Source of the DNA: a virus
IMG/VR virus record: IMGVR_UViG_3300032309_001546
Coordinates: 81,920-145,919 of that record
Direction: 5' to 3' (one strand)
DNA: 64,000 bases
The notes under the pieces were generated by a model. The model searched no databases, was not told the origin of the DNA, and worked only from the letters and a program-made list of their open reading frames with translations. Of the stretch, positions 13,251-33,295 are shown piece after piece (the first letter of the stretch is position 1; every line of letters starts with the position of its first letter). Both the position numbers and the translations under genes were made by a program.

Positions 13251-16200
13251 CTACTTCTTACCCGTGATACGGTTAAGACGTGCCGCGACACCGGCCTTCT
13301 TCTCCGAGGGAGCAGGGGCGGGCTTCTCTTCAGCCTCAACCTCGGCGTCGAAGTCATTGGGATCGATGAAGATAATCTTCAGGCCCGACTCTTCAGCGTA
13401 ATCAACCGCATTCTTTGTACCGCCAGTGCTGCCATCCCAGACAGCAATGACGATATCGGCGCAGTCAATCATCTGCATGTTACGGCGCTGCATGCAGAAC
13501 TTGTCTTCGCCATAGGTCTTCTCGCTGACCTGGACGACTTCGCTGGCAACTTCCAGCATGTTCCAGTAGCGCTGCTTGGCTTCGCGGGGCCACATAGCCT
13601 CCTGCTCTACACAGGGGATCATGACCGTGAACGGGATACCCATCTCGTGCGCAATCTCTGCCGCATCCTGGTCAACGCCAAGGGCACCGCCAGTGATTAG
13701 CCAGAGCTTCTCACCGTGCTTGGCAAGACCACGCTCAAGCTGAGCCGCAATCTGTTCACGTACCCAGATGCGCTTCTCCGCATTGGGATTGTATCCGCCG
13801 ATCTTGTCGGGACGGTGACCAGTGAAGGCCACAAAGAAGTACTCCGTCTCTTCGGCTTCAACTTCCTCAGTTGCAGCCGCGATCTTAACCTTGAAGGGAT
13901 CGACATACAGCATACCGGGCTTGTAGTCTGCATACCCTTCGGGGCGGTTGTTGTGGGTAGACTTCGCGCCCGCAGGAGGATTCGGCAGAGTGCTGACATC
14001 CCGCTTCTGGATGTAAAGCATTACTCCATCAAGTCGGGCTTCGTCATACCAGGCTTGAGGGCCCTTCTGGCGGATCTGCCACTCGCTAAGGTCAACGCTA
14101 TCAGCATCAAACTCGATGTAGGGGCCATGGTCCCCGTACACAATGCGTGCGTACTCGGTTGCAATAATGCTTCCATTCGGGGTTTGGATTTCCCCATCAA
14201 AGCCCTGACCATCCTCACGGAGTCCGAGTTTGGCTTCGACTTCACGCTTGTCGGCTTCGCGATTAGGCAAACCAAGCGTTGTGGACTTGAAGTCTTCGGA
14301 CTCTTCGTCTTCGGCAACAGGGCACACAGCGGCCATCGAGGGGCCATTGTCTTCGTATCTGGCTTCGCAGGTCGGGCAGAGACCGGCCACGAAATCCCCC
14401 TCGACTTTGCAGTCCTCACAGGCATTTGTGCAAATGCGGCAGCCAGCGCCCTCGCACACTTCGCACACAGATGTGGGGATGGACTCTTCTGCTTCTTCCT
14501 CAGTCTTGTTGGCAAGGCGCAGCAGGACGTCAGCGTGGCAGGCTTCGGGTGCACAATGGCAAATCAACGACTTGCCAGTAAGTTCTCCGAGGCTATCCAT
14601 GAGATTAACCTGTGCCTTCACCCAAGCCTCGTACTTGGCAATGACTTCCTCACGGTTGCCATCGCGGCCAAGGACGAAGGGATTACCCCACTTGCTGGGA
14701 CGGCCAACGTATACCGCACCGGAAGGAATATCCTTATCTGCCCGGTTGTAGACGGCAGGTGCAGCGTTAGCAACGACCGGAGCGCTAGCCTCAGTGGCTT
14801 CAGACTCTTCGTCTTCGCTGTCCACCCAGCAATCGGTGTAATCGAAGCGGTCGCTGCTCTTGGCCTTCTCGTCTTCCTCAAAGACCTCGGACTCTTCCTC
14901 TTCGTCACCGTACTGGCTAGGGTCGAAGTCCGGGTTCTCTTCACCGAAGTCCGGCTCTTCTGCATCTTCCGGCTCGGGCATCTCGTCAGCGTCCTCCGAG
15001 ATGTCATACTCGTGCGAGGGCTCATCCTCGTAACCCTCCTCGTACGTATCCTCTTCAGGCTCATCACCAGAGAAGACATCGTTGAGATCCTCTTCGCCTC
15101 CACCCTGAGGACCGTTGTCGTCGCCAAGGAAGGTGAGGATCAGGAAGCTGTTCAAGCCCTGAGGCGCGAACCTGGTGCCAACAGCCACGGTGCGACCCAT
15201 GACAGTTTTACCATTCTCGTCCTTGGTCTTGATGTCGGGGTTCCACTCGGTAACCCACTCACGCTCCACAAGCTCTGCCTTCACCGCAGTACCCGGGAAG
15301 ATCTCGATCAAGCGACGCAGGAAACCGAATGAGTCAGCAGCTTCAAGCGTGCTCATAGCGTTGAAGCTGTCGAGCTCAGCCTGCGCTTCTGCGATCTTTG
15401 TCTCGCTGGGCTTCTTGGCCTTCTTCAAGTCAGCCAGTGCGTGACGAAGCTCCTCACCCTTGTTCTTCCGACGAAGCTCGATCTGACGACCGATTTCGCT
15501 GACAGTCGCAAGCTGACCCTCAAAGCCATTGGCCTCTCGACCATCGCTGATGCGCACGCCGGGCAGGCTGAGAAGACCATCGATCCCCCAGCCAAGCTTC
15601 TCGCCGTCACCGCCGAAGCCACCGCAGTTCTTCTCACCACGGATGTAGGCGAGGAGAGCTTCTGCGTCCTGGCGTACCGTCGGGGTACCACCCTTGCCCA
15701 AGTAGAGAGCAAGCTGACGGGCTTCACCGAGGCTGTTATCGTCGAGGCCGTTGATTGCGGCAATGCCATTGCTGGACATCCAGTCCGTGAGGTATTCCCA
15801 GGGACCGCCGACGAAGAACGCAGTGGTAGCGATACCGCCATTCGCCTTAAGGTTGCCATTGGCATCCTCGGTGATGGTGATCTCAAGAGCCTGTGGCTTC
15901 GCATCCTTGCCGACCTTCTTGGCCTTCTCAGCAGGCTGCAGGTAACGATTGGCAAAGGCAAGCCAGGCCATCTTCACAGCAGCGTCGCGGTCTTCAGCCT
16001 CAAAGTTCTTGAGGATGTACGACTCGATCTGGGAGTCTACGAGTTCAATCGCCGCTCTGATGGGCATCGCCGAGTAGGCCAGCCAGAGTGCCTTCTTGGC
16101 ACGCGAGATGTTGCCGCCAGCCAGCATTGCACTGACGACCCTGTAACGACGGTTGCTCTCGTGGCCTGCAGGAGCCATGATCTTGTGGATCAGTTCCTGG

Positions 16201-19200
16201 TTGGTCCAAGCCTGGAGGTTCTTGAAGCTACCGGGGCTCCAGTTCCAGTAGAGCCAGGCCTCGGTCTCTTCGCCAGGGGCCTCGTCTTCCGTGCGACCAA
16301 GCCAAGCAGTGAGCGTCTGGTGCAGGACGTTCTGGCGACCAGCTTCCCACTGAGCATTGGCGAGGGATTCGACCTCATCGATGCACCACTGGCGGTAGTC
16401 AGCCCAGAGGGTGTAGACCTTCGAGCTAAGCTCACCAGCGACGAGGTGGGTAACGATCTCGCCTTCTTCGTTGCGGACGGGAGCGGTCACCTTCGTGCCA
16501 TTCTCGAACAGGGGCTGCATGTCTTCACCGAGGACAGCAACACGCTTGGCCGGGTCGACGAACAAGCTCTTCGCACCAAGGCTGAGCTTCCGCAGAACGG
16601 CAGGCACGAATGCCCAACCTTCACGGCCCTTGCCTTCGGTGACAAGGTCAAGCCAGACCTGGTAGACCTGCACCATCCGGTAGGATGCCCAGGCTTCAGC
16701 GTAACCCGTCATCTTGACCGCTGCGTCAACGATGTCGGACAACGTCACGCCGAAGAGGAGCGTCTCGGAGATCTCCTCACGAAGCTCCTCGAGGAAGGTA
16801 GGCAGCTTCACCCAGCCAACAGCCAGGGACATGCCGTAGATCTTCGCGTTAGCGACGATACCAATCGCCTTCTGGAAGACGTTCTCCTCCATGTTCATCA
16901 CCGACTCGTACAAGCTCTCGTGGCTCATACCAGCAGTGGTGGCTTCGACCGGCGCTTCGGGCTCCGTAACGGCGGTAATGACGAAGTTCTCCGTCTTCAC
17001 CTTGAAAGCCTGACCGAGGATCGTGGCCGCGTTGAGGCGGGTCCACAGGCTCTTGTTCTCCGGGATACCGGCGACCATCTTAGCACGGAGCGCGTTCTTC
17101 TGTGCACGCTTCTCGGCGTTGAGCTTCGCCTTATCAGCAAGAGCGGTACGCCAGGCCAGACCCTTCACGATGAGCATGGCAAGCTTACCACGCGCAGTGG
17201 GGCAGCGGTCATCATAGTCCATGCCTTCGTTTGCCTGGAGCAGGAGGACTACCGTGTCTCCGCTCGCCGTGGTGAACATGATCACCATACGGCCGCTTAC
17301 GCCGATGATGAAGATATTCAGGCTTTCCGGCAGCTCACGGATCTCCGCAACCGTGCCCGACGTTTCGCCGGTGGGGTTACGGAAGAAGATTGCCAGGTTG
17401 GGCGCGCAGTTGTTCTTCGCCCAGCGAGCAAAGTTGGTGCAGTAGACAATAAGACGACCATCAGCCGTCTTCGTCTCCAGCTCCATGGTCTGCTTCGCCT
17501 TCGTAGCAACCTCCTCAGAGTGCTGCCCTTCAGCAATCCAAGCCGCATGCAGCATCGGCCAGAGGACCGGGATGGGGTAGGTTGCCCACAAGTCGCTTCC
17601 CTCCTCGGTAACAGGAGCGATCTTCATCGAGCCAGGCTCAATGTTCTTGCTCAAGGTGCCAACCAGCTGCTGTGCCAGCATGCGGAAGGGGAGAACAGGG
17701 ATTCGCATCGCGCCGAGGAGCTTCGCAAGAACGCTGTTGCGGTTGTCCTCGACCTTGGCCTCTTCGTCGCCAGCAACGAAGTCGTCAGCATCCTCGTCCA
17801 GACCCTTCAGGAAGTCGGGGAGACGCTTCTTGGCGTAGGCGATGTAGCCAGCAATGAGCTGGTAGAACTCCTTCGAGTTGACCTCAGCTCCGAGAAGCAT
17901 AAGGATCGACTGAAGCGACATAACCGCCTTCTCCTTCGTGAGCGCCGCAGTGCCGGGGATCCAGCAAAGGGCATAGTCGTTCTGGGTAGCGGACCACTCG
18001 GTCTTCACCTCACTGGCAATGATGCAGACGCCTTCAGGGAAGTACCGAGCCGGAAGCGGGATGCACATACCCTTGATCAGACCTTCGCTGGTCAAGATAC
18101 GAGCCACCATCGGAGCGGTCAGACCCATGGCCTTCGCCACGTCGGCACGGACAAGCACAAGGCCGTCGAAGAACTTGACCAGTGCAGCGGCAATCTTGCC
18201 CAGGTCCAGGACCTTACCCGGCAGGACAACGCGGGCAGTAACCCGCGAGATCCAGTACGAGTCAGCATACTTAGCAATGCGGCCCAGGGTCTTACCCTTG
18301 AACCGCAGAGCCGCCATGCTGACCTTCTTGGCTTCGGGCGTGCAGTAGAGGGTCATACCCTTCTGCAGAACCCGAATGGTGACAAGGCCAAGCTTCTTAG
18401 CGTTGGCCACGGCATCGGTATCGTCGTCAGCGACAACGAGACCTTCGAGGAGTCCAGGGCTATCGTCAGCCGCAGGACTAGTAGCACACGCCTCCTCAAG
18501 GAAGGCTGCGAACGTGCCGGGAGTGCATACCCGGACTTTCTTGTTACCCATCTTGTTCTCCTTAGGGGTGGGTGCCCCGGTGTGCTTCGTCGAGGCCAGG
18601 ATGATTCCCGGCTTAACGGAAGCTTTGGTGTCGTTGTTGGTGCTGGTGGCTTCACCGTTTAGGTCATTGTTGACCTCGGCAAAGATATCCTCGCAAGCCG
18701 CCATAAGACGAGCTGCGATGGCTGAGATGGCGTCGCTGGGGATGCCGGCATAGAGGCGGTCATAGCCACCTCTCATGGTCAACTCGGTACCGTCCGCCTG
18801 GCAGACATTGCAGAATTGGCCCTTTGAGCCAAATCCTGCAACACCGCAACCGACGCAGGTCTCGGGCCCGCAGTCGGCTTCGCTGGGCTTAGCCTTAACC
18901 ATGGCCTCGAGCTTCGTCGCAAGGGCATTGCCCACTACAACGAACAGGATACCGACGATGCCGACGACAAACAGAAAGCCGGGTCCTGCAAGGAACTCGG
19001 CCGGGCTCTTAGCCCAAGCGGCTTCGACCGCCTGGCTGAACGTGGGTGCTGCAGCGGCGAGTACGGCGATAAGCGGGGAGCTGGCCTTCACCGCATTGCG
19101 GCGTTGGCGGCTCAGTTCCCGCTTTCTGGTGCGCTTCTGGGCATCCTCAGTCGCCGTCATGGCGAAGAAGACGCTTGCGGTATCCTGTGCGGACTTGCCC

Positions 19201-20048
19201 GTGTTACCACAGACAGCGGCTTCGATGCGCTTGGCAAGGGTGGTCTTGATGACCACAATCTTAGCGCCGATAGCTACGGGCTTCACAGGAGTAACCTGCT
19301 TGGCCTTTGCCGCCGCGATGTGCGCCGAGAAGGTCATGGCCTTCGTGACGCGGGGGAATTTCGCGACGGGCTTCGCAGCAGCCTTAGCGACGGGCTTCGC
19401 AACGGGCTTGGAGGCAGCCTTGGGAGCAGGCTTTACAGCGGGCTCAGCGACGGCTTCCACTGCCACTTCCGTGACAGCAGCAACCTCGATGGCAGGGGCA
19501 GGGGCAGGCTTCACAGGAGCCTTAGCGACAGGCTTGGCAATTGCCTTCGGAGCGGGCTTGGCGACAGCCTTGGGGATATGGACCCCCTTCGACCGCAGCC
19601 AGCGGTCAAGGCGGATAGTGGTCCAGCAGTTACGCCGGGCCAAACGGGCTGCATGGCGGGTAAGCGCCTGCAGCCTGAGCGACGCCGCCGACTGGGCAGC
19701 AACAGTCCGCCGAAGCGGAAGGACGATGGCGTATACGTTCGCCAGAAAACGGGCCACGAAGGCCAAGATGACACGGACCATGGGATGGTCCTTACCCTCC
19801 GCGAGGAGGATTGGGGTGGTCGGCTTCACCGAATTGGCAAAGCGGACCACGAGGGAAGCGGGGATGCGGGGAGCGATGCGGGTTGCAGCCTCCGTGACCA
19901 GCACGAAGCTGGTGACGAAGAAGCTGACTAGGGCAGCGGCCTGCTGCGAAAGGGTGGGGGCCAGCTGGGCCTCCACGGTCAGCGCCGTTGCGAAAACGGC
20001 GAACACCACAGCCACGATGGCGGTGATGGCGAGTTGGATCCGAGACAT
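13251..20048 (-). CDS. 2265-aa multidomain protein: membrane N-terminus, putative two-barrel (YonO/QDE-1-like) RNA polymerase core, acidic linker, DUF4326, Zn ribbons, unknown YADYK domain, YspA/SLOG (DUF1273)
   Basis: Ordered motifs FDG..., R...G.IKG, FFRNP, GMDYDD, IGIVAN, IVDAAVKMTG; YVGRPSKWGNPF...CHCAPEACHADVL; FTGHRP...GGALGVD...RN..MID...AVWDGS.GGT; AGGAGG RBS. Confidence 0.75.
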   Translation of the reverse strand: MSRIQLAITAIVAVVFAVFATALTVEAQLAPTLSQQAAALVSFFVTSFVLVTEAATRIAPRIPASLVVRFANSVKPTTPILLAEGKDHPMVRVILAFVARFLANVYAIVLPLRRTVAAQSAASLRLQALTRHAARLARRNCWTTIRLDRWLRSKGVHIPKAVAKPAPKAIAKPVAKAPVKPAPAPAIEVAAVTEVAVEAVAEPAVKPAPKAASKPVAKPVAKAAAKPVAKFPRVTKAMTFSAHIAAAKAKQVTPVKPVAIGAKIVVIKTTLAKRIEAAVCGNTGKSAQDTASVFFAMTATEDAQKRTRKRELSRQRRNAVKASSPLIAVLAAAAPTFSQAVEAAWAKSPAEFLAGPGFLFVVGIVGILFVVVGNALATKLEAMVKAKPSEADCGPETCVGCGVAGFGSKGQFCNVCQADGTELTMRGGYDRLYAGIPSDAISAIAARLMAACEDIFAEVNNDLNGEATSTNNDTKASVKPGIILASTKHTGAPTPKENKMGNKKVRVCTPGTFAAFLEEACATSPAADDSPGLLEGLVVADDDTDAVANAKKLGLVTIRVLQKGMTLYCTPEAKKVSMAALRFKGKTLGRIAKYADSYWISRVTARVVLPGKVLDLGKIAAALVKFFDGLVLVRADVAKAMGLTAPMVARILTSEGLIKGMCIPLPARYFPEGVCIIASEVKTEWSATQNDYALCWIPGTAALTKEKAVMSLQSILMLLGAEVNSKEFYQLIAGYIAYAKKRLPDFLKGLDEDADDFVAGDEEAKVEDNRNSVLAKLLGAMRIPVLPFRMLAQQLVGTLSKNIEPGSMKIAPVTEEGSDLWATYPIPVLWPMLHAAWIAEGQHSEEVATKAKQTMELETKTADGRLIVYCTNFARWAKNNCAPNLAIFFRNPTGETSGTVAEIRELPESLNIFIIGVSGRMVIMFTTASGDTVVLLLQANEGMDYDDRCPTARGKLAMLIVKGLAWRTALADKAKLNAEKRAQKNALRAKMVAGIPENKSLWTRLNAATILGQAFKVKTENFVITAVTEPEAPVEATTAGMSHESLYESVMNMEENVFQKAIGIVANAKIYGMSLAVGWVKLPTFLEELREEISETLLFGVTLSDIVDAAVKMTGYAEAWASYRMVQVYQVWLDLVTEGKGREGWAFVPAVLRKLSLGAKSLFVDPAKRVAVLGEDMQPLFENGTKVTAPVRNEEGEIVTHLVAGELSSKVYTLWADYRQWCIDEVESLANAQWEAGRQNVLHQTLTAWLGRTEDEAPGEETEAWLYWNWSPGSFKNLQAWTNQELIHKIMAPAGHESNRRYRVVSAMLAGGNISRAKKALWLAYSAMPIRAAIELVDSQIESYILKNFEAEDRDAAVKMAWLAFANRYLQPAEKAKKVGKDAKPQALEITITEDANGNLKANGGIATTAFFVGGPWEYLTDWMSSNGIAAINGLDDNSLGEARQLALYLGKGGTPTVRQDAEALLAYIRGEKNCGGFGGDGEKLGWGIDGLLSLPGVRISDGREANGFEGQLATVSEIGRQIELRRKNKGEELRHALADLKKAKKPSETKIAEAQAELDSFNAMSTLEAADSFGFLRRLIEIFPGTAVKAELVEREWVTEWNPDIKTKDENGKTVMGRTVAVGTRFAPQGLNSFLILTFLGDDNGPQGGGEEDLNDVFSGDEPEEDTYEEGYEDEPSHEYDISEDADEMPEPEDAEEPDFGEENPDFDPSQYGDEEEESEVFEEDEKAKSSDRFDYTDCWVDSEDEESEATEASAPVVANAAPAVYNRADKDIPSGAVYVGRPSKWGNPFVLGRDGNREEVIAKYEAWVKAQVNLMDSLGELTGKSLICHCAPEACHADVLLRLANKTEEEAEESIPTSVCEVCEGAGCRICTNACEDCKVEGDFVAGLCPTCEARYEDNGPSMAAVCPVAEDEESEDFKSTTLGLPNREADKREVEAKLGLREDGQGFDGEIQTPNGSIIATEYARIVYGDHGPYIEFDADSVDLSEWQIRQKGPQAWYDEARLDGVMLYIQKRDVSTLPNPPAGAKSTHNNRPEGYADYKPGMLYVDPFKVKIAAATEEVEAEETEYFFVAFTGHRPDKIGGYNPNAEKRIWVREQIAAQLERGLAKHGEKLWLITGGALGVDQDAAEIAHEMGIPFTVMIPCVEQEAMWPREAKQRYWNMLEVASEVVQVSEKTYGEDKFCMQRRNMQMIDCADIVIAVWDGSTGGTKNAVDYAEESGLKIIFIDPNDFDAEVEAEEKPAPAPSEKKAGVAARLNRITGKK

Positions 20049-29473: not shown

Positions 29474-32400
29474 ATGGCACAATTTAGTCCGCGAGTAAGA
29501 GCCGCAAGAGACTACATTTTGAATCCCGACATGGATCCTATCAAAGCAGCAAGTGCTTTGTATGGAAAGCATGCTAATGCTAATACCTACTTAAGTACTG
29601 TAGATGCTAGTGTTCGCGGTATTTTCACTGCTAGTACTGCTATTATGAAGGGTACTGCTAGGTTTACTGGCGACGTAGCTAAGTCGCTGAATAAGGTTGT
29701 TAAACCTCGTAAGATTATAGAAAGTACATTAAGTAGGTTGATTGGTCAGAAAGATACAAATGATATTTTAAACTTTACTGATAATATCCTTAAAGAATCT
29801 ACGGATGCTTTAAAGGAGATGGGTAAACAAATATCTATCTTTACAACTGAGTATGCTGCTAATGCAACTAATATGGAATATGGGGGAAGTGCAAGTAACG
29901 TACTTAGAAGTATGAAGACTGCAATGCTTTCTGCTAGTGGATATAGTTTCTCTGTTAATGAAATGATACAGAATACTGTAGTTATAGACATTGAGACCGG
30001 CGGCCTTGGCAAGAATGCCCCGATTGTTCAGATGGCTATGGCAGATATATCTCGTATTCCAAATATGAGTCAAATGACTCCTGATGAGATTAGAGCTTAC
30101 CAGGAAGAGATAGCCAGATTAACTCCTCGTGAGCAATTAGAGCGAGGAATGCTAAGCATGCAGATGCTGCCTGAAGCAGTTCTCAGAGATGATGCTAGAA
30201 CTGCTGCTAATGGAGCTGTACGCACACCTACTTACAATATGACTACACACTTACCAAGGAGTGCTCAGGCTTTCCAAGAGACTTTTGGTGGTTGGGGCTT
30301 GCATACTGAAGGCTATACTATCGGAGACTTTTATCGAGAGTATGCAGATGAAGTAGATCCGTCAGCCGCAGATCCTAATGATCCTATGGCTCGTAGAATC
30401 TCTGATGCTAATATGGCTTCTATTAGAGCAAATCTTGAACAGCATGGTTTTATTTCATTGCAAGATGGCAGAAGACTATATAGTCAGAGAGAAGCGACTA
30501 AGTGGTCAACTATTTTTATGAAGAGGGCCGCAGATGAGAATAAGAATTTAACTGCAGCTAATATTTCATTCGAATCTTTTCGAGTAGGTAAGCTGCAGAA
30601 TTTCTTTGTTGAGGATGCAGAGGTAGGAGTAGATGACAGAGCTGTCAACTTTGTTATTGGCAGAGATCAAATGACACAGGCTGAGAAGGATAAGTTCTTC
30701 CTGAATAATGATCCAGATATTGTTGCTGCTTTTGGCGGAGAACTAAAAGGGCACAAAGATATAAGAGATATGTATCAAGCGACTTGGAAAAGTAAGTATA
30801 AGCTTAATATCTTAGATGAGAATAATTATTACTTTGTAGACCAGTTTAAGACTTTGCAGAACAAAGGAAGAAGCAATGAGATGATAAATCTTTTTCCTGA
30901 GTTTATGCGTCGCCTTGGCGGCGGATTAAAAACTTATGACCAGCAGAACTTGACTAAGATGTTATTCTCTGGGCTAATGCAACTTGACTATATTCCTCAT
31001 AGCCAAGATATCTTCTCAGGTACAGCTATTGACTGGGCGACTAGAACTGCTTTGGGCGAATCAGAAAGTCACTTAGCTTTCTCTGACGTTTTACAGCAGG
31101 CTAGAATCATGACAGAAGGTAAGTTAGGTGACGCGACTTCTGATGTCTATAACATGACTAAAGCAACTGGATCTGCTGCCGTTGGTGACCAGGTAAAGGG
31201 AATGTTTTCTGCGATAAGAGTCTTGCTTGATCCTAAGAGAAAGACCTGGTTTGATTTAGGAAAAATTATTAGAGAGACTGAAGTAAGTGTTAACCATCCT
31301 ATTCAAAGAACAACTGAAGCAGGTCAAGTATTTAATGCTCCTGCTGCGTTAGGTAATCTCCAATTTACTGGAAGTATTGCTGAGGTAAACAAGCAATATA
31401 ACATTACCAAAGAACTATTAAGAATAAATGAGACTGTAGACCATGCACTAGGAGTAGGCAATACTCTATATGACCAGAGAGGAGCGGGATTAACAGAGAC
31501 AATGCCCGCGAGACAACTAGAAGCAAACAGCCCTCAGTTAAGAGAAGGTACAACTATCGAATACAATGGTACTACTTACCAAACACGTGCTAGTATACAA
31601 ACTCCATCTGGCCGAATGTATCAGGTTCAAGGTTCGAATGCTCTTATTCCAGCTCAAGATATAACAATTCCAGCACAGGATGTCACCTGGTTTGAAACTG
31701 GACATGAGCCTTTCTCTCTAGGAAGACAGACAGGACAAAAGCGCCATGAGCTTACAACTCCTGACAGTAGAAGTTTATACATGAGCTATACTACTCATGA
31801 CTATGAGTTGACAGATAGAATTAGAGAGCAACATCAAAGCCATCTTGCAGCAGGAGCAACGGCAGATGAGGCAAATGCAGCAACGAAAGAATGGCTAGTT
31901 GGTCAGTATGCGGAGACAAGAGGTATACAGTCAACTGGTAGAACTGCTCCTGGAATGATTGACCAATTCCGTACTTTAATGGGAATGTTTAATAATCGAC
32001 AAGAAATGACAGATACTTTGCGCTTCCAGATGGAACATGGTAAGAAAGCAATGGATGCATCTATTCATGAACAAGTAAGAGGTAGAGTTGCAGAAGTTGC
32101 AAGACTAGGCAAGGAAGACATTATAACTCCGACACGAGACTTTGTAACCGAAGGCGCAAGAACTGTTAGTGATGTCTTCTCGGGCCGTCGCTCTTTAAAC
32201 GATATAAGCTTAAGTTCTATATCTAATTTGCCAAATGCAATAGTCCAGCAGACTTTTAATGTAGATGCAGACTTTGCAAGAATGTTTACCCGTGTTGCTG
32301 GTAGGCCATTGGCTGTTGCTGGAGCAGTAGGAGCAGTTGCTGGAGCTGTAGGTGCTGGCTATATGGTAGATGGTCCAAGTTGGAAAGCAACTACAGGTGA

Positions 32401-33295
32401 CATTCTTAAAATGACAGGCGAGGAAAAAACAATCCTTGAACAGGGACATCACAAATCTGGTGGCAATCTTCTTGATGTTTCTACTCCTTATCTTGGAGAT
32501 ATACAACATATCAATCCAAATGGCGCAGTACTAACTGCACTAGACTCTAGTAAAGTTGATTATGCGATTGGTGACGGTGACACTGTTGAAGTCTTGTCAA
32601 AAGGCTTTCTTGGTATGGGTAGAAAAAAGCTAGGAAGTATCCGTGTTGCAGGCATTGACACACCGGAAACTTCGCATGGTGGTGGTAATGGACCAGGTAA
32701 TATGCCTTACTCTGCTCAGGGTAAACAGTACTTAAGCAACGTGCTTAGCTCTAGAGAAGGAGCTTATGTTGCTATTGGACCAAAACAGACGTATGGTCGC
32801 GCCGTTGGTCTTGTTGTTGATGAGTCAGGAATTAACTATTCTCACCAGATGGTTGAGCAAGGACTTGGTTCAGTGCTTTATCGTGAAACTCCATTTGAAG
32901 ACTTAATTAGCCAGAAAGATTATAATCGAGCTGAGAATAGAGCAAGAGCTGGCAACAGAGGAATGTGGAGTGAACCATTCTACTATGGTGCACAAAGCGG
33001 GATTGAAGGTAGAGACAGAACTGGTTGGAATAAAATGACACCGACTAATGCTTATAAATTTAACTTTGATAGAAGTCCTGGCACAACTACTGAACAAGTT
33101 GAAAAGATGAGAGAACCAATGGAGATGGCTCATTCTTTAAATAGTATAATTGATACAACACAAGAAGATTTTTTAAATGCTGCAGGCAGTAGCATTGGAA
33201 GAGGTAATCATAAAGCATTGATGGCAGATATGCAACAGATGGCGCTAGCAAATAGCATGCAAAAAAACCGAGGAAGAGGCAGGGAGCGTAGATAA
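29474..33295 (+). CDS. large protein with DEDDh (DnaQ-like) exonuclease motifs and a C-terminal staphylococcal-nuclease domain
   Basis: VVIDIETGG, ANISFE, HLAFSDV; GDGDTV...IRVAGIDTPE...YGR...ARAGNRGMW. Confidence 0.75.
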   Translation: MAQFSPRVRAARDYILNPDMDPIKAASALYGKHANANTYLSTVDASVRGIFTASTAIMKGTARFTGDVAKSLNKVVKPRKIIESTLSRLIGQKDTNDILNFTDNILKESTDALKEMGKQISIFTTEYAANATNMEYGGSASNVLRSMKTAMLSASGYSFSVNEMIQNTVVIDIETGGLGKNAPIVQMAMADISRIPNMSQMTPDEIRAYQEEIARLTPREQLERGMLSMQMLPEAVLRDDARTAANGAVRTPTYNMTTHLPRSAQAFQETFGGWGLHTEGYTIGDFYREYADEVDPSAADPNDPMARRISDANMASIRANLEQHGFISLQDGRRLYSQREATKWSTIFMKRAADENKNLTAANISFESFRVGKLQNFFVEDAEVGVDDRAVNFVIGRDQMTQAEKDKFFLNNDPDIVAAFGGELKGHKDIRDMYQATWKSKYKLNILDENNYYFVDQFKTLQNKGRSNEMINLFPEFMRRLGGGLKTYDQQNLTKMLFSGLMQLDYIPHSQDIFSGTAIDWATRTALGESESHLAFSDVLQQARIMTEGKLGDATSDVYNMTKATGSAAVGDQVKGMFSAIRVLLDPKRKTWFDLGKIIRETEVSVNHPIQRTTEAGQVFNAPAALGNLQFTGSIAEVNKQYNITKELLRINETVDHALGVGNTLYDQRGAGLTETMPARQLEANSPQLREGTTIEYNGTTYQTRASIQTPSGRMYQVQGSNALIPAQDITIPAQDVTWFETGHEPFSLGRQTGQKRHELTTPDSRSLYMSYTTHDYELTDRIREQHQSHLAAGATADEANAATKEWLVGQYAETRGIQSTGRTAPGMIDQFRTLMGMFNNRQEMTDTLRFQMEHGKKAMDASIHEQVRGRVAEVARLGKEDIITPTRDFVTEGARTVSDVFSGRRSLNDISLSSISNLPNAIVQQTFNVDADFARMFTRVAGRPLAVAGAVGAVAGAVGAGYMVDGPSWKATTGDILKMTGEEKTILEQGHHKSGGNLLDVSTPYLGDIQHINPNGAVLTALDSSKVDYAIGDGDTVEVLSKGFLGMGRKKLGSIRVAGIDTPETSHGGGNGPGNMPYSAQGKQYLSNVLSSREGAYVAIGPKQTYGRAVGLVVDESGINYSHQMVEQGLGSVLYRETPFEDLISQKDYNRAENRARAGNRGMWSEPFYYGAQSGIEGRDRTGWNKMTPTNAYKFNFDRSPGTTTEQVEKMREPMEMAHSLNSIIDTTQEDFLNAAGSSIGRGNHKALMADMQQMALANSMQKNRGRGRERR

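What the first reader, a model, noticed from the sequence alone, without database searches (positions are those of the whole stretch)
13251..15130. Polymerase fused to DUF4326, an unknown YADYK domain and a YspA/SLOG domain
After a very acidic linker (~14800-15120) come DUF4326 (~14510-14750), CxxC ribbons, a domain with RIVYGDHGPYIEF...YADYKPG (~13890-14260) and a complete YspA-type SLOG (~13360-13840). SLOG domains bind or process nucleotides in conflict systems. Tethering them to a polymerase suggests a polyvalent protein coupling transcription to nucleotide/NAD sensing or counter-defence.
Basis: partly seen in the sequence, partly recalled or inferred. Interest (0 to 1): 0.7.

Follow-up and report, generated by a model that had tools for sequence, protein, structure and literature searches.

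The report
Swappable nucleotide-processing tail on giant phage protein
The last 520 residues of a 2265-residue phage protein are a string of swappable modules (DUF4326, zinc ribbons, an undescribed beta-tent domain and a YpsA-type SLOG) of the kind phages use against nucleotide- or ADP-ribose-based bacterial immunity, but the body of the protein has not been shown to be a polymerase.

Summary
One uninterrupted ORF (13251-20048, minus strand, 2265 aa) ends with five parts in order. They are an acidic linker (47 D/E in 105 residues), DUF4326 (Pfam E 6e-24), four CxxC pairs, a 'YADYK' domain and a complete YpsA-type SLOG (E 9e-17, GxD motif kept).

The fusion is not an assembly artefact. Seven relatives on separate contigs carry core, acidic linker and terminal SLOG in one frame.

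The modules between linker and SLOG are cassettes. They are present, absent or permuted among phages whose flanking DNA is 82-95% identical. The breakpoints lie on a repeated linker-coding sequence of 18-27 nt.

YADYK is a real family with no Pfam model: 458 cluster representatives, an AF2 model at pLDDT 96, and a beta-tent-like fold. It is fused to DUF4326 and/or SLOG in six other cluster representatives. One is a stand-alone 466-aa protein colinear with this whole tail.

The best reading is a polyvalent phage protein with a nucleotide/ADP-ribose-processing counter-defence array.

'Polymerase' stays unproven. The motifs are colinear with YonO, but the acidic loop is D-x-D-D rather than DxDxD, no profile match is significant, and the fold prediction failed.

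This scan had already noted DUF4326/SLOG fusions on other DNA. I class this as a new variant of a known kind.

The parts
13251..20048 (-). Single ORF of 2265 aa (P0001), the giant modular protein
   Evidence: Seven relatives at 76-96% identity in the core, on separate contigs.
18372..20048 (-). N-terminal region (residues 1-559): four hydrophobic, TM-like segments (1-30, 37-55, 90-112, 350-380), an A/K/P-rich low-complexity stretch, and one CxxC pair (398, 413)
   Evidence: Hydropathy and motif scan. The region varies among relatives.
15129..18371 (-). Conserved core (residues 560-1640) with invariant motifs DG, GL.KG..LP..FP, R.P.G..SG, NEG.D.DD and LSD..DA..K..G. A candidate two-barrel polymerase, unproven.
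   Evidence: Alignments with homologues at 25-33% identity: P0010, P0009, P0193. hhalign against YonO is not significant. The fold prediction failed.
14814..15128 (-). Acidic linker, residues 1641-1745 (47 D/E, 3 K/R)
   Evidence: Present in all eight family members with variable length.
14496..14802 (-). DUF4326 cassette (Pfam domain at 14520-14735, residues 1772-1843)
   Evidence: Pfam PF14216, 85 bits. The whole block is absent from L012, whose flanks are 91-95% identical. In L013 it lies after the CxxC block instead of before it.
14313..14486 (-). Cys-rich module, four CxxC pairs (residues 1855-1912), probably two zinc ribbons
   Evidence: Present in P0003, P0004, P0007 and P0008; absent in P0002, P0005 and P0006.
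13860..14292 (-). YADYK cassette (domain at residues 1918-2060, nt 13869-14297): an undescribed family with a beta-tent-like fold
   Evidence: 458 representatives. AF2 pLDDT 96, pTM 0.89. VIA-align Z 7.1-5.0 to Mis18/Yippee, YPEL5, MsrB, cereblon CULT, DUF427 and Mss4. The block is absent from L012, L013 and L014.
13353..13832 (-). YpsA-type SLOG domain, residues 2073-2232, with the GxD signature (G-V-D at 2124-2126)
   Evidence: Pfam PF06908, 62 bits. Full-length alignment to B. subtilis YpsA (PDB 2NX2), E 2e-9. Present in all seven close relatives.
13254..13352 (-). Conserved basic C-terminal tail, residues 2233-2265
   Evidence: Many invariant columns across the eight sequences.
13837..14907 (-). 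Five copies of an 18-27 nt repeat (plus strand GGACTCTTCGTCTTCG-like, coding E-D-E-E-S-E) at 13837-13863, 14290-14316, 14481-14498, 14794-14820 and 14881-14907. Four of them lie on a module boundary; the fifth (14881-14907) lies inside the acidic linker.
   Evidence: the repeat finder families D1, D3, D4. The four boundary copies coincide with the indel and permutation breakpoints.

Best explanation
Region 13251-15130 encodes the C-terminal effector array of a giant modular ('polyvalent') phage protein.

A conserved core of about 1100 aa is followed by a floppy acidic tether. After the tether come DUF4326 (a rhodanese-phosphatase-like domain), a zinc-ribbon spacer, a new beta-tent domain (YADYK) and a YpsA-type SLOG. 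The trio DUF4326-YADYK-SLOG is a self-contained functional unit that also exists as a stand-alone phage gene. Here it has been grafted onto the giant protein as cassettes, each bounded by a short repeat that codes an acidic linker. These cassettes recombine among related phages.

The most likely function is to bind or degrade small nucleotide or NAD+/ADP-ribose-derived molecules, or ADP-ribose-type adducts, that the host's defences make early in infection. In this reading the SLOG acts on the N-glycosidic or nucleotide part and DUF4326 on terminal phosphates. YADYK takes the slot that Macro or NADAR domains occupy in known DUF4326-X-SLOG fusions.

Shown here: domain identities, the reality of the fusion, the cassette structure, and the recurrent YADYK/DUF4326/SLOG linkage. 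Inferred: the substrates, the counter-defence role, and that the core is a polymerase.
For: - Domains: Pfam finds DUF4326 and YpsA above the curated cut-offs. The SLOG aligns over its full length to YpsA 2NX2 and keeps the GxD/E motif that Brzozowski et al. 2019 (PMC6459960) showed to be needed.
- Fusion: seven relatives from JGI, ENA and Logan contigs all have core, acidic linker and terminal SLOG in one ORF.
- Cassettes: against L012 (flanks 91-95% identical), window 14496-14802 (DUF4326) and 13860-14292 (YADYK) are clean insertions. Against L013 the DUF4326 and CxxC blocks are swapped in order. The breakpoints lie on the repeated linker sequence.
- YADYK family: 458 representatives. Fifteen columns are invariant across 46 sequences, mostly polar or aromatic (N, R, E, R, D, Y, E, Q, Y, Y, Y), and H57 is nearly invariant. 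This looks like an active or ligand site.
- Linkage: among the top 150 representatives, YADYK is fused to SLOG in P0012, P0013 and P0118, and to DUF4326 in P0013, P0029, P0036 and P0059. P0013 (466 aa) is colinear with the whole tail of P0001, BLASTP E 4e-63.
- Polyvalent context: YADYK occurs in giants of 4258-6105 aa, one of which carries Pfam LPD38, 'large polyvalent protein associated domain'.
- Literature: Iyer et al. [quoted passage not shown] The EVADES preprint (10.1101/2025.06.06.658234) reports a phage SLOG protein, ORF83, that blocks type III Avs. Its amoeba-virus homologues carry DUF4326.
Against: - No substrate or activity has been measured for DUF4326, for viral YpsA SLOGs or for YADYK, so the counter-defence role rests on guilt by association.
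- YADYK's other partners suggest nucleic acids rather than small molecules: cold-shock domain, AlkB-like oxygenase, pseudouridine synthase, adenosine deaminase, tRNA_edit, DCD and HIRAN.
- The terminal SLOG is kept in every close relative at 86-98% identity while the other modules come and go. It may therefore be integral to the core's job rather than an add-on.
- Nothing here shows when the protein is made or whether it is packaged. The gene lies in a block of small, early-looking genes, not among the virion genes.
Confidence: 0.55

Rival explanations
1. The tail works on nucleic acid handled by the core. If the core is an RNA polymerase, the modules process the ends or modified bases of its template or transcripts. 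They might strip ADP-ribose or other adducts from phage DNA ahead of transcription, or trim or mark RNA 5' ends. That would make a polymerase with a tethered repair or end-processing unit.
For: - YADYK's partners outside the DUF4326/SLOG set all act on nucleic acids or nucleosides: cold-shock domain, AlkB-like 2OG oxygenase, pseudouridine synthase, adenosine deaminase, tRNA_edit, DCD, HIRAN in the distant giant P0010, and a helicase fusion in BFVD.
- The beta-tent fold list includes the RIG-I, MDA5 and LGP2 C-terminal domains, which read RNA ends (Z 4.2-4.7).
- In Salmonella jumbo phage SPAsTU a stand-alone YADYK homologue lies two genes from an RNAP beta-subunit gene.
- Iyer et al. 2021 (PMC7824862) link DUF4326 with DNA replication and R-M components as well as with Macro, SLOG and NADAR.
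Against: - The core is not shown to be a polymerase.
- A stand-alone core exists with no tail at all (P0193), and close relatives do without DUF4326 and YADYK. These modules are therefore dispensable for the core's activity.
- The fold matches are weak (Z<8). YADYK has no cysteines, so it lacks the zinc site of RIG-I-type domains.
Confidence: 0.2
2. The SLOG, and perhaps YADYK, is a non-catalytic sensor. It binds a host-made nucleotide or ADPr signal and switches the core's activity on or off, as proposed for the sporadic SLOG fusions to HTH, HNH, exonuclease, helicase and kinase domains.
For: - Iyer et al. 2022 propose exactly this for SLOG fused to nucleic-acid enzymes (PMC9503650).
- The SLOG is the one module that all seven close relatives keep, always at the very end and 86-98% identical.
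- YpsA-clade SLOGs include known ligand sensors.
Against: - More distant family members have no SLOG: P0010 ends in YADYK plus HIRAN, and P0193 has no tail. The core does not need it.
- A 105-residue acidic, probably disordered tether is an odd coupling for allostery.
- The GxD motif and the full YpsA profile are kept, so catalysis cannot be excluded.
Confidence: 0.12
3. The fusion is an artefact (chimeric assembly or a missed frameshift), and the tail is really a separate small gene like P0013.
For: - This exact module order (DUF4326-CxxC-YADYK-SLOG) is seen only on this contig.
- A stand-alone DUF4326-YADYK-SLOG gene exists elsewhere.
Against: - There is no stop in 6795 nt.
- Core, linker and SLOG lie in one frame on seven other contigs from different projects.
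- Every cassette junction is in frame and sits on the linker repeat.
- GC content is uniform across the modules (0.55-0.62), and the GC-rich gene within AT-richer flanks is reproduced in relatives.
- The neighbouring genes are syntenic in L003 and L014.
Confidence: 0.03

Closest known systems
Viral DUF4326 / SLOG / Macro / NADAR 'ADPr-processing' fusion proteins (Iyer, Burroughs, Anantharaman & Aravind 2022, Viruses, PMC9503650); example Myxococcus phage Mx1 WNM70115.1, 'DUF4326 and YspA-like SLOG domain protein', 252 aa
   Same: It has the same two Pfam domains on one polypeptide in a tailed phage. The Mx1 SLOG is 42% identical. The predicted role is the same: disarming NAD+/ADPr-derived immune signals.
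   Different: Here the pair is the tail of a 2265-aa protein rather than a small stand-alone gene. A zinc-ribbon module and the YADYK domain sit between the two. YADYK occupies the slot usually filled by Macro or NADAR, and no Pfam, NCBIfam or PHROG model matches it.
Polyvalent proteins of phages and conjugative elements (Iyer et al. 2017, J Bacteriol, PMC5512222), including the coliphage N4 virion RNAP gp50
   Same: It is a giant multidomain phage protein. Its domain architecture varies between close relatives and it carries conflict-type enzymatic modules. YADYK co-occurs with LPD38 in another giant protein.
   Different: Neither packaging nor injection is shown. The gene is not among the virion genes. 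The core is unrelated to the T7-like module of N4 (PF00940 does not hit this genome, though that search rang in none of its control genomes either). No MPTase, MuF or other hallmark polyvalent-protein domain was detected.
Single-chain two-barrel RNA polymerases: YonO of SPbeta, QDE-1, crAss-like phi14:2 gp66, P23-45 gp96 (RNAP fused to the tape measure; PMC10770324)
   Same: The order and spacing of short motifs match. DG to KG to R.P to the acidic loop is 31/231/54 residues here and 25/224/47 in YonO. The best unbiased hhalign segment is the KG motif. There is precedent for such enzymes being extremely divergent and fused to other modules.
   Different: The acidic loop reads D-x-D-D in all four lineages, not DxDxD. 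No profile or structure match is significant. The N-terminus is TM-like.
ORF83, a phage SLOG/DprA-like protein that inhibits type III Avs (as summarised in the EVADES preprint, 10.1101/2025.06.06.658234)
   Same: It is a phage-encoded SLOG-superfamily domain with a demonstrated anti-defence phenotype. Its homologues in amoeba viruses carry DUF4326.
   Different: ORF83 is described as LOG/DprA-like. The domain here is YpsA-type. No direct sequence comparison was possible because the ORF83 sequence was not at hand.
Beta-tent fold domains (Yippee/Mis18, YPEL5, MsrB, cereblon CULT, Mss4, TCTP, DUF427, RIG-I-like receptor C-terminal domains)
   Same: They are the only consistent structural neighbours of the YADYK model: Z 7.1 to 4.2, 82-100 aligned residues. 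DUF427 and GFA also top the ESM-Atlas shape search.
   Different: Z is below 8 and Foldseek E is above 0.06. YADYK has no cysteines and so no zinc site. It has an added N-terminal helix with an invariant N-R..D. It has no sequence similarity to any of these families.

Membership tests
Pfam PF14216 DUF4326 | Match to the family HMM above the curated gathering score (25 bits), covering most of the profile | tested here: met
   85 bits, E 5.9e-24, profile positions 6-81 of 82, residues 1772-1843. 89 bits on the isolated segment.
YpsA clade of the SLOG superfamily (Pfam PF06908) | HMM match above the gathering score (27.7 bits) over the full domain | tested here: met
   62.1 bits, E 8.6e-17, profile positions 1-167 of 168. 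phmmer to YpsA PDB 2NX2 gives E 2.2e-9 over chain residues 5-178.
YpsA clade of the SLOG superfamily (Pfam PF06908) | Signature GxD/E substrate-site motif (G53/E55 of B. subtilis YpsA; PMC6459960) | tested here: met
   In the HMMER alignment, YpsA 'GQLGVE' pairs with 'GALGVD' here. G2124, V2125 and D2126 are invariant in all eight family members.
Polyvalent proteins (Iyer et al. 2017) | Several unrelated conflict-type domains on one phage or plasmid polypeptide, with an architecture that varies among relatives | tested here: met
   At least four distinct modules sit behind the core. Five different tail architectures occur among eight close relatives.
Polyvalent proteins (Iyer et al. 2017) | Packaged in the virion or transferred with the DNA and acting at the start of infection | not testable with these tools
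   This needs virion proteomics or infection time courses. The gene context is a block of small genes divergent from the terminase-portal-capsid-sheath block, which does not decide it.
Two-barrel RNA polymerases (YonO / QDE-1 / Pfam PF05183 RdRP) | Sequence-profile match to the family | tested here: not met
   PF05183 gives no match in the protein at E<=10 or in the whole 146-kb record at E<=10, while the control rings in B. subtilis. A profile of the core finds nothing in PDB sequences at E<=10.
Two-barrel RNA polymerases (YonO / QDE-1 / Pfam PF05183 RdRP) | Metal-binding DxDxD loop in the second double-psi beta-barrel (PMC10770324) | tested here: not met
   The loop is N-E-G-x-D-x-D-D in P0001, P0010, P0009 and P0193. 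It has three acidic residues but not in the 1-3-5 spacing.
Two-barrel RNA polymerases (YonO / QDE-1 / Pfam PF05183 RdRP) | Profile-profile or structural similarity of two DPBB domains | tested here: inconclusive
   hhalign of the core against a 15-sequence YonO alignment gives as best segment the KG motif, at E 0.044 and probability 1.2%. The AF2 model of the core is unusable (pLDDT 33), so no fold search was possible.
Beta-tent fold (Yippee/MsrB/CULT/Mss4/RIG-I CTD) | Structural superposition on family members | tested here: inconclusive
   The top 29 VIA-align rows are nearly all beta-tent families, but the best Z is 7.1 (rmsd 3.0, 89 residues aligned), inside the range the tool calls common. 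The best Foldseek E is 0.067.
Beta-tent fold (Yippee/MsrB/CULT/Mss4/RIG-I CTD) | Two CxxC pairs forming a zinc site (present in most, though not all, beta-tent families) | tested here: not met
   There is no cysteine in residues 1918-2066 and no conserved Cys column in the 46-sequence alignment.

The most novel reading that the evidence does not exclude
The core is a membrane-anchored, single-chain two-barrel RNA polymerase with a variant D-x-D-D metal loop. Its C-terminus is a plug-and-play rack of effector cassettes. YADYK is a new enzyme family that replaces Macro/NADAR in the DUF4326-X-SLOG triad and removes ADP-ribose-type marks or signals right where the phage genome is first transcribed. 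This would be transcription physically coupled to erasing host immune chemistry.
Probability: 0.15. Interest if true: 0.8.

Novelty: new variant of a known kind. Interest (0 to 1): 0.55.

Why it matters
- DUF4326 and viral YpsA SLOGs are widespread in large phages and giant viruses, and are predicted but never shown to disarm NAD+/ADP-ribose-based immunity. This locus adds a third recurrent partner. YADYK has hundreds of members in phages, giant viruses and marine eukaryote transcripts and no description, so the triad becomes a defined unit that can be tested.
- The cassette structure is seen at nucleotide resolution, with insertions, losses and a permutation all at one short repeated linker sequence. 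It is a clean natural example of how polyvalent proteins are assembled and reshuffled.
- If the core does prove to be a polymerase, this would be the first SLOG/DUF4326 array tethered to one.

Tried and rejected
- AF2 of the core (residues 540-1645, 8-sequence alignment) gave pLDDT 33, so no fold search was made on it. Both fold jobs were then spent, and the more diverse core alignment found later could not be folded.
- A profile of the core against PDB sequences found nothing at E<=10.
- ESM-Atlas feature searches with the YADYK domain and with the core gave no usable hit.
- hhalign of the core against YonO alone and against a YonO alignment was not significant.
- Pfam RdRP, T7-type RNAP, and the Rpb1 and Rpb2 domains in the whole record gave no match. 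The PF00940 control rang nowhere, so that search is uninformative.
- A word-based search for longer relatives of the core with a profile returned only the six known close relatives and missed P0010.
- The IMG/VR scan found no further relatives. The metagenome scan found one, L005.
- Foldseek of the YADYK model against PDB gave nothing at E<=1e-3.
- A YADYK profile against PDB sequences gave only a chance GDHGPY match in a GluRS.
- A literature search for the YADYK motifs found nothing relevant.
- Considered and rejected: that D-Y-D-D is a reverse-transcriptase YxDD or an RdRp GDD motif. The Tyr is not conserved (it is L in the other lineages), and there is no upstream invariant Asp for a palm motif A.
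- PADLOC gave only a weak ShosA (DprA-like) hit to the SLOG, E 4e-4. I record it as a lead, not as evidence.
Full report
**What is there**

The window is the last 64 kb of a 145.9-kb IMG/VR virus record. It is a myovirus-type phage, with terminase, portal, capsid and sheath genes on the plus strand from about 39 kb onward.

On the minus strand, 13251-20048 is one ORF of 2265 aa with no stop. The finding concerns its last 620 or so residues.

Pfam places DUF4326 at residues 1772-1843 (85 bits, cut-off 25). It places a full-length YpsA-type SLOG at 2073-2232 (62 bits, cut-off 27.7, profile positions 1-167 of 168). Residues 1641-1745 hold 47 Asp/Glu and 3 Lys/Arg. Four CxxC pairs lie at 1862-1894.

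**The 'YADYK' domain**

Residues 1918-2060 match no Pfam, NCBIfam or PHROG model.

An exhaustive phmmer search of 1.84 billion cluster representatives found 458 proteins at E<=1e-3 and 202 at E<=1e-10. Of the 150 best, 37 have 200 aa or fewer, 107 have 200-2000 aa, and six are giants of more than 2000 aa, the largest 6105 aa.

A 46-sequence alignment has 15 invariant columns, mostly polar or aromatic. The recurring motifs are N-R..D, Y.R.VYGDHGPY.E, Y.Q.R.V, PNPP and NNR.EGYADY.PG..Y. That pattern suggests a ligand or active site.

AlphaFold2 on this alignment gave pLDDT 96 and pTM 0.89.
- Foldseek against PDB found nothing at E<=1e-3.
- The exhaustive VIA-align search listed, almost without exception, beta-tent-fold proteins: Mis18/Yippee Z 7.1, YPEL5 6.6, MsrB 6.2, cereblon CULT 5.6, DUF427 5.4, Mss4 5.0, TCTP, and the RIG-I, MDA5 and LGP2 C-terminal domains at 4.2-4.7.
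- The ESM-Atlas shape search put DUF427 and GFA first.
- These Z values are inside the range the tool calls common, so I call the fold beta-tent-like with moderate confidence.
- The domain has no cysteine, so it lacks the zinc site of most beta-tent families.

The family is rare in cultured material: 3 of 50,697 phage records, 1 plasmid, and 6 loci in 185,579 species genomes, found with a single peptide pattern. BFVD holds uncharacterised members from uncultured phages and a pithovirus, and one fused to a helicase. One cluster includes a marine eukaryote transcript. No paper mentions its motifs.

**The fusion is real and modular**

A word-based search with the core found seven relatives, 76-96% identical in the core, on separate JGI, ENA and Logan contigs. 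All have core, acidic linker and terminal SLOG in a single frame. What lies between linker and SLOG differs:

| Proteins | Modules between linker and SLOG |
|---|---|
| P0002, P0006 | none |
| P0005 | a different Cys-rich segment |
| P0003, P0004 | CxxC only |
| P0008 | CxxC then DUF4326 |
| P0007 | the other Cys-rich segment, then CxxC, then DUF4326 |
| P0001 (here) | DUF4326, CxxC, YADYK |

At the DNA level, against L012 (flanks 91-95% identical), window 14496-14802 (DUF4326) and 13860-14292 (YADYK) are clean insertions. Against L013 the DUF4326 and CxxC blocks are permuted.

The breakpoints fall on copies of an 18-27 nt repeat coding E-D-E-E-S-E. Copies lie at 13837, 14290, 14481, 14794 and 14881. 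The first four sit on module boundaries and the fifth lies inside the acidic linker. Recombination between these linker repeats is the obvious shuffling mechanism. This is an inference from the coincidence of repeats and breakpoints.

GC content is even across the modules (0.55-0.62). The contrast between a GC-rich gene and AT-richer flanks recurs in relatives. The neighbouring genes are syntenic in L003 and L014. An assembly artefact is therefore very unlikely.

**The triad is a unit**

P0013 is a stand-alone 466-aa gene on a 76.9-kb phage-like contig. It is colinear with the tail of P0001 through DUF4326, YADYK and SLOG, BLASTP E 4e-63.

HMMs built from the window's own modules find further links among the 150 best YADYK proteins:
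- SLOG in P0012, P0013 and P0118.
- DUF4326 in P0013, P0029, P0036 and P0059.

Pfam agrees for P0013 and P0029. So YADYK is linked to DUF4326 and/or SLOG in six other clusters at 50% identity, in several orders.

Iyer et al. [quoted passage not shown] They predict that it handles terminal phosphates of ADPr derivatives, and that viral YpsA-like SLOGs sense or cleave cADPR-type signals. In the DUF4326-X-SLOG layout X is usually Macro or NADAR. Here X is YADYK. By position I infer a comparable role for it, namely binding or hydrolysing an ADP-ribose-type moiety.

A phage SLOG protein, ORF83, is reported to block type III Avs, and its amoeba-virus homologues carry DUF4326. The SLOG here also gives a weak match to ShosA, the DprA-like partner of the Shosta toxin (E 4e-4). 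That is only a lead.

**Alternative pull towards nucleic acids**

The other YADYK partners act on nucleic acids or nucleosides. They are cold-shock domain, AlkB-like oxygenase, pseudouridine synthase, adenosine deaminase, tRNA_edit and DCD, HIRAN and a helicase. In Salmonella phage SPAsTU a stand-alone homologue lies two genes from an RNAP beta-subunit gene. The substrate could therefore be a modified base or an end on DNA or RNA rather than a free small molecule. I keep this as the main rival.

**Is the body a polymerase?**

Three distant homologues of the core turned up:
- P0010: 2771 aa, 25% identical, on a syntenic 149-kb contig. Its tail is YADYK plus HIRAN.
- P0009: 26% identical in the core.
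- P0193: a stand-alone 1081-aa core with no tail.

Across these, the invariant residues cluster in the motifs DG, GL.KG..LP..FP, R.P.G..SG, NEG.D.DD, N.F...G..A and LSD..DA..K..G.

Their order and spacing resemble YonO. DG to KG to R.P to the acidic loop is 31/231/54 residues here and 25/224/47 in YonO. The best unbiased hhalign segment between the core profile and a 15-sequence YonO profile is the KG motif.

That match scores only E 0.044, probability 1.2%. Four further tests gave no support:
- Pfam RdRP hits neither the protein nor the genome.
- PDB sequences give nothing.
- The universal DxDxD loop (PMC10770324) is D-x-D-D here.
- The only fold attempt failed at pLDDT 33.

No other RNAP is detectable in the record. 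I put the two-barrel polymerase reading at roughly even odds. It is a lead, not a result.

The N-terminal 560 residues carry four TM-like hydrophobic segments and an A/K/P-rich stretch. That is unusual for a polymerase. It would suit a protein inserted in, or passed through, the membrane at infection. This is speculation.

**Verdict**

What is new:
- A YADYK/beta-tent-like family that joins the DUF4326-SLOG network.
- The grafting of that triad onto a giant lineage-specific phage protein.
- A nucleotide-level picture of cassette exchange at linker repeats. The YADYK cassette is 68-74% identical between phages whose cores are only 25-30% identical.

Similar DUF4326/SLOG fusions were already noted by this scan on other DNA and in the literature. 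The class is therefore 'new variant of a known kind'.

Noticed in passing
window 13251-20048 versus 28000-64000; L014, L003, L005: The giant gene is much more GC-rich (0.59) than the structural module (0.42) and the left end (0.36). The same contrast between gene and flanks recurs in relatives (0.54-0.60 against 0.45-0.54).
   Followed up: partly
window 18372-20048 (residues 1-559 of the ORF): There are four hydrophobic TM-like segments (1-30, 37-55, 90-112, 350-380), an Ala/Lys/Pro-rich low-complexity stretch and a CxxC pair (398, 413) ahead of the core. This is odd for a soluble polymerase. The region is variable or missing in relatives.
   Followed up: partly
window 13860-14292 versus P0010 (L003:10001-18316) and P0009: The YADYK module is 68-74% identical between phages whose cores are only 25-30% identical, while typical family members are about 45% identical. 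This points to recent lateral exchange of the cassette.
   Followed up: partly
L005:4966-8211: A stand-alone 1081-aa homologue of the core (about 32% identity) has no TM region, no acidic linker and no tail. The core is therefore a separable unit.
   Followed up: partly
window 29474-33295; L003:673-4662; L014:423-3899: A 1158-1329-aa protein with a SNase-type endonuclease domain is conserved in synteny, upstream of the giant gene and divergently oriented, in all three phage lineages. It is followed in the window by ORFs of 921 and 1062 aa with no family match.
   Followed up: no
L015:5920-6345 (Salmonella phage SPAsTU, MH221129.1): A stand-alone YADYK homologue (34% identity) in a cultured jumbo phage lies two genes downstream of a gene annotated as RNAP beta subunit fragment 3. 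It could serve as an experimental handle for the family.
   Followed up: no
window 13254-13352: A basic C-terminal tail of 33 residues after the SLOG is strongly conserved in all eight family members. It could be a targeting or packaging signal.
   Followed up: no
window 13353-13832: The SLOG gives a weak PADLOC match to ShosA (E 4e-4), the DprA-like antitoxin-like partner of the Shosta defence toxin. Antitoxin mimicry is a possible mode of action.
   Followed up: no
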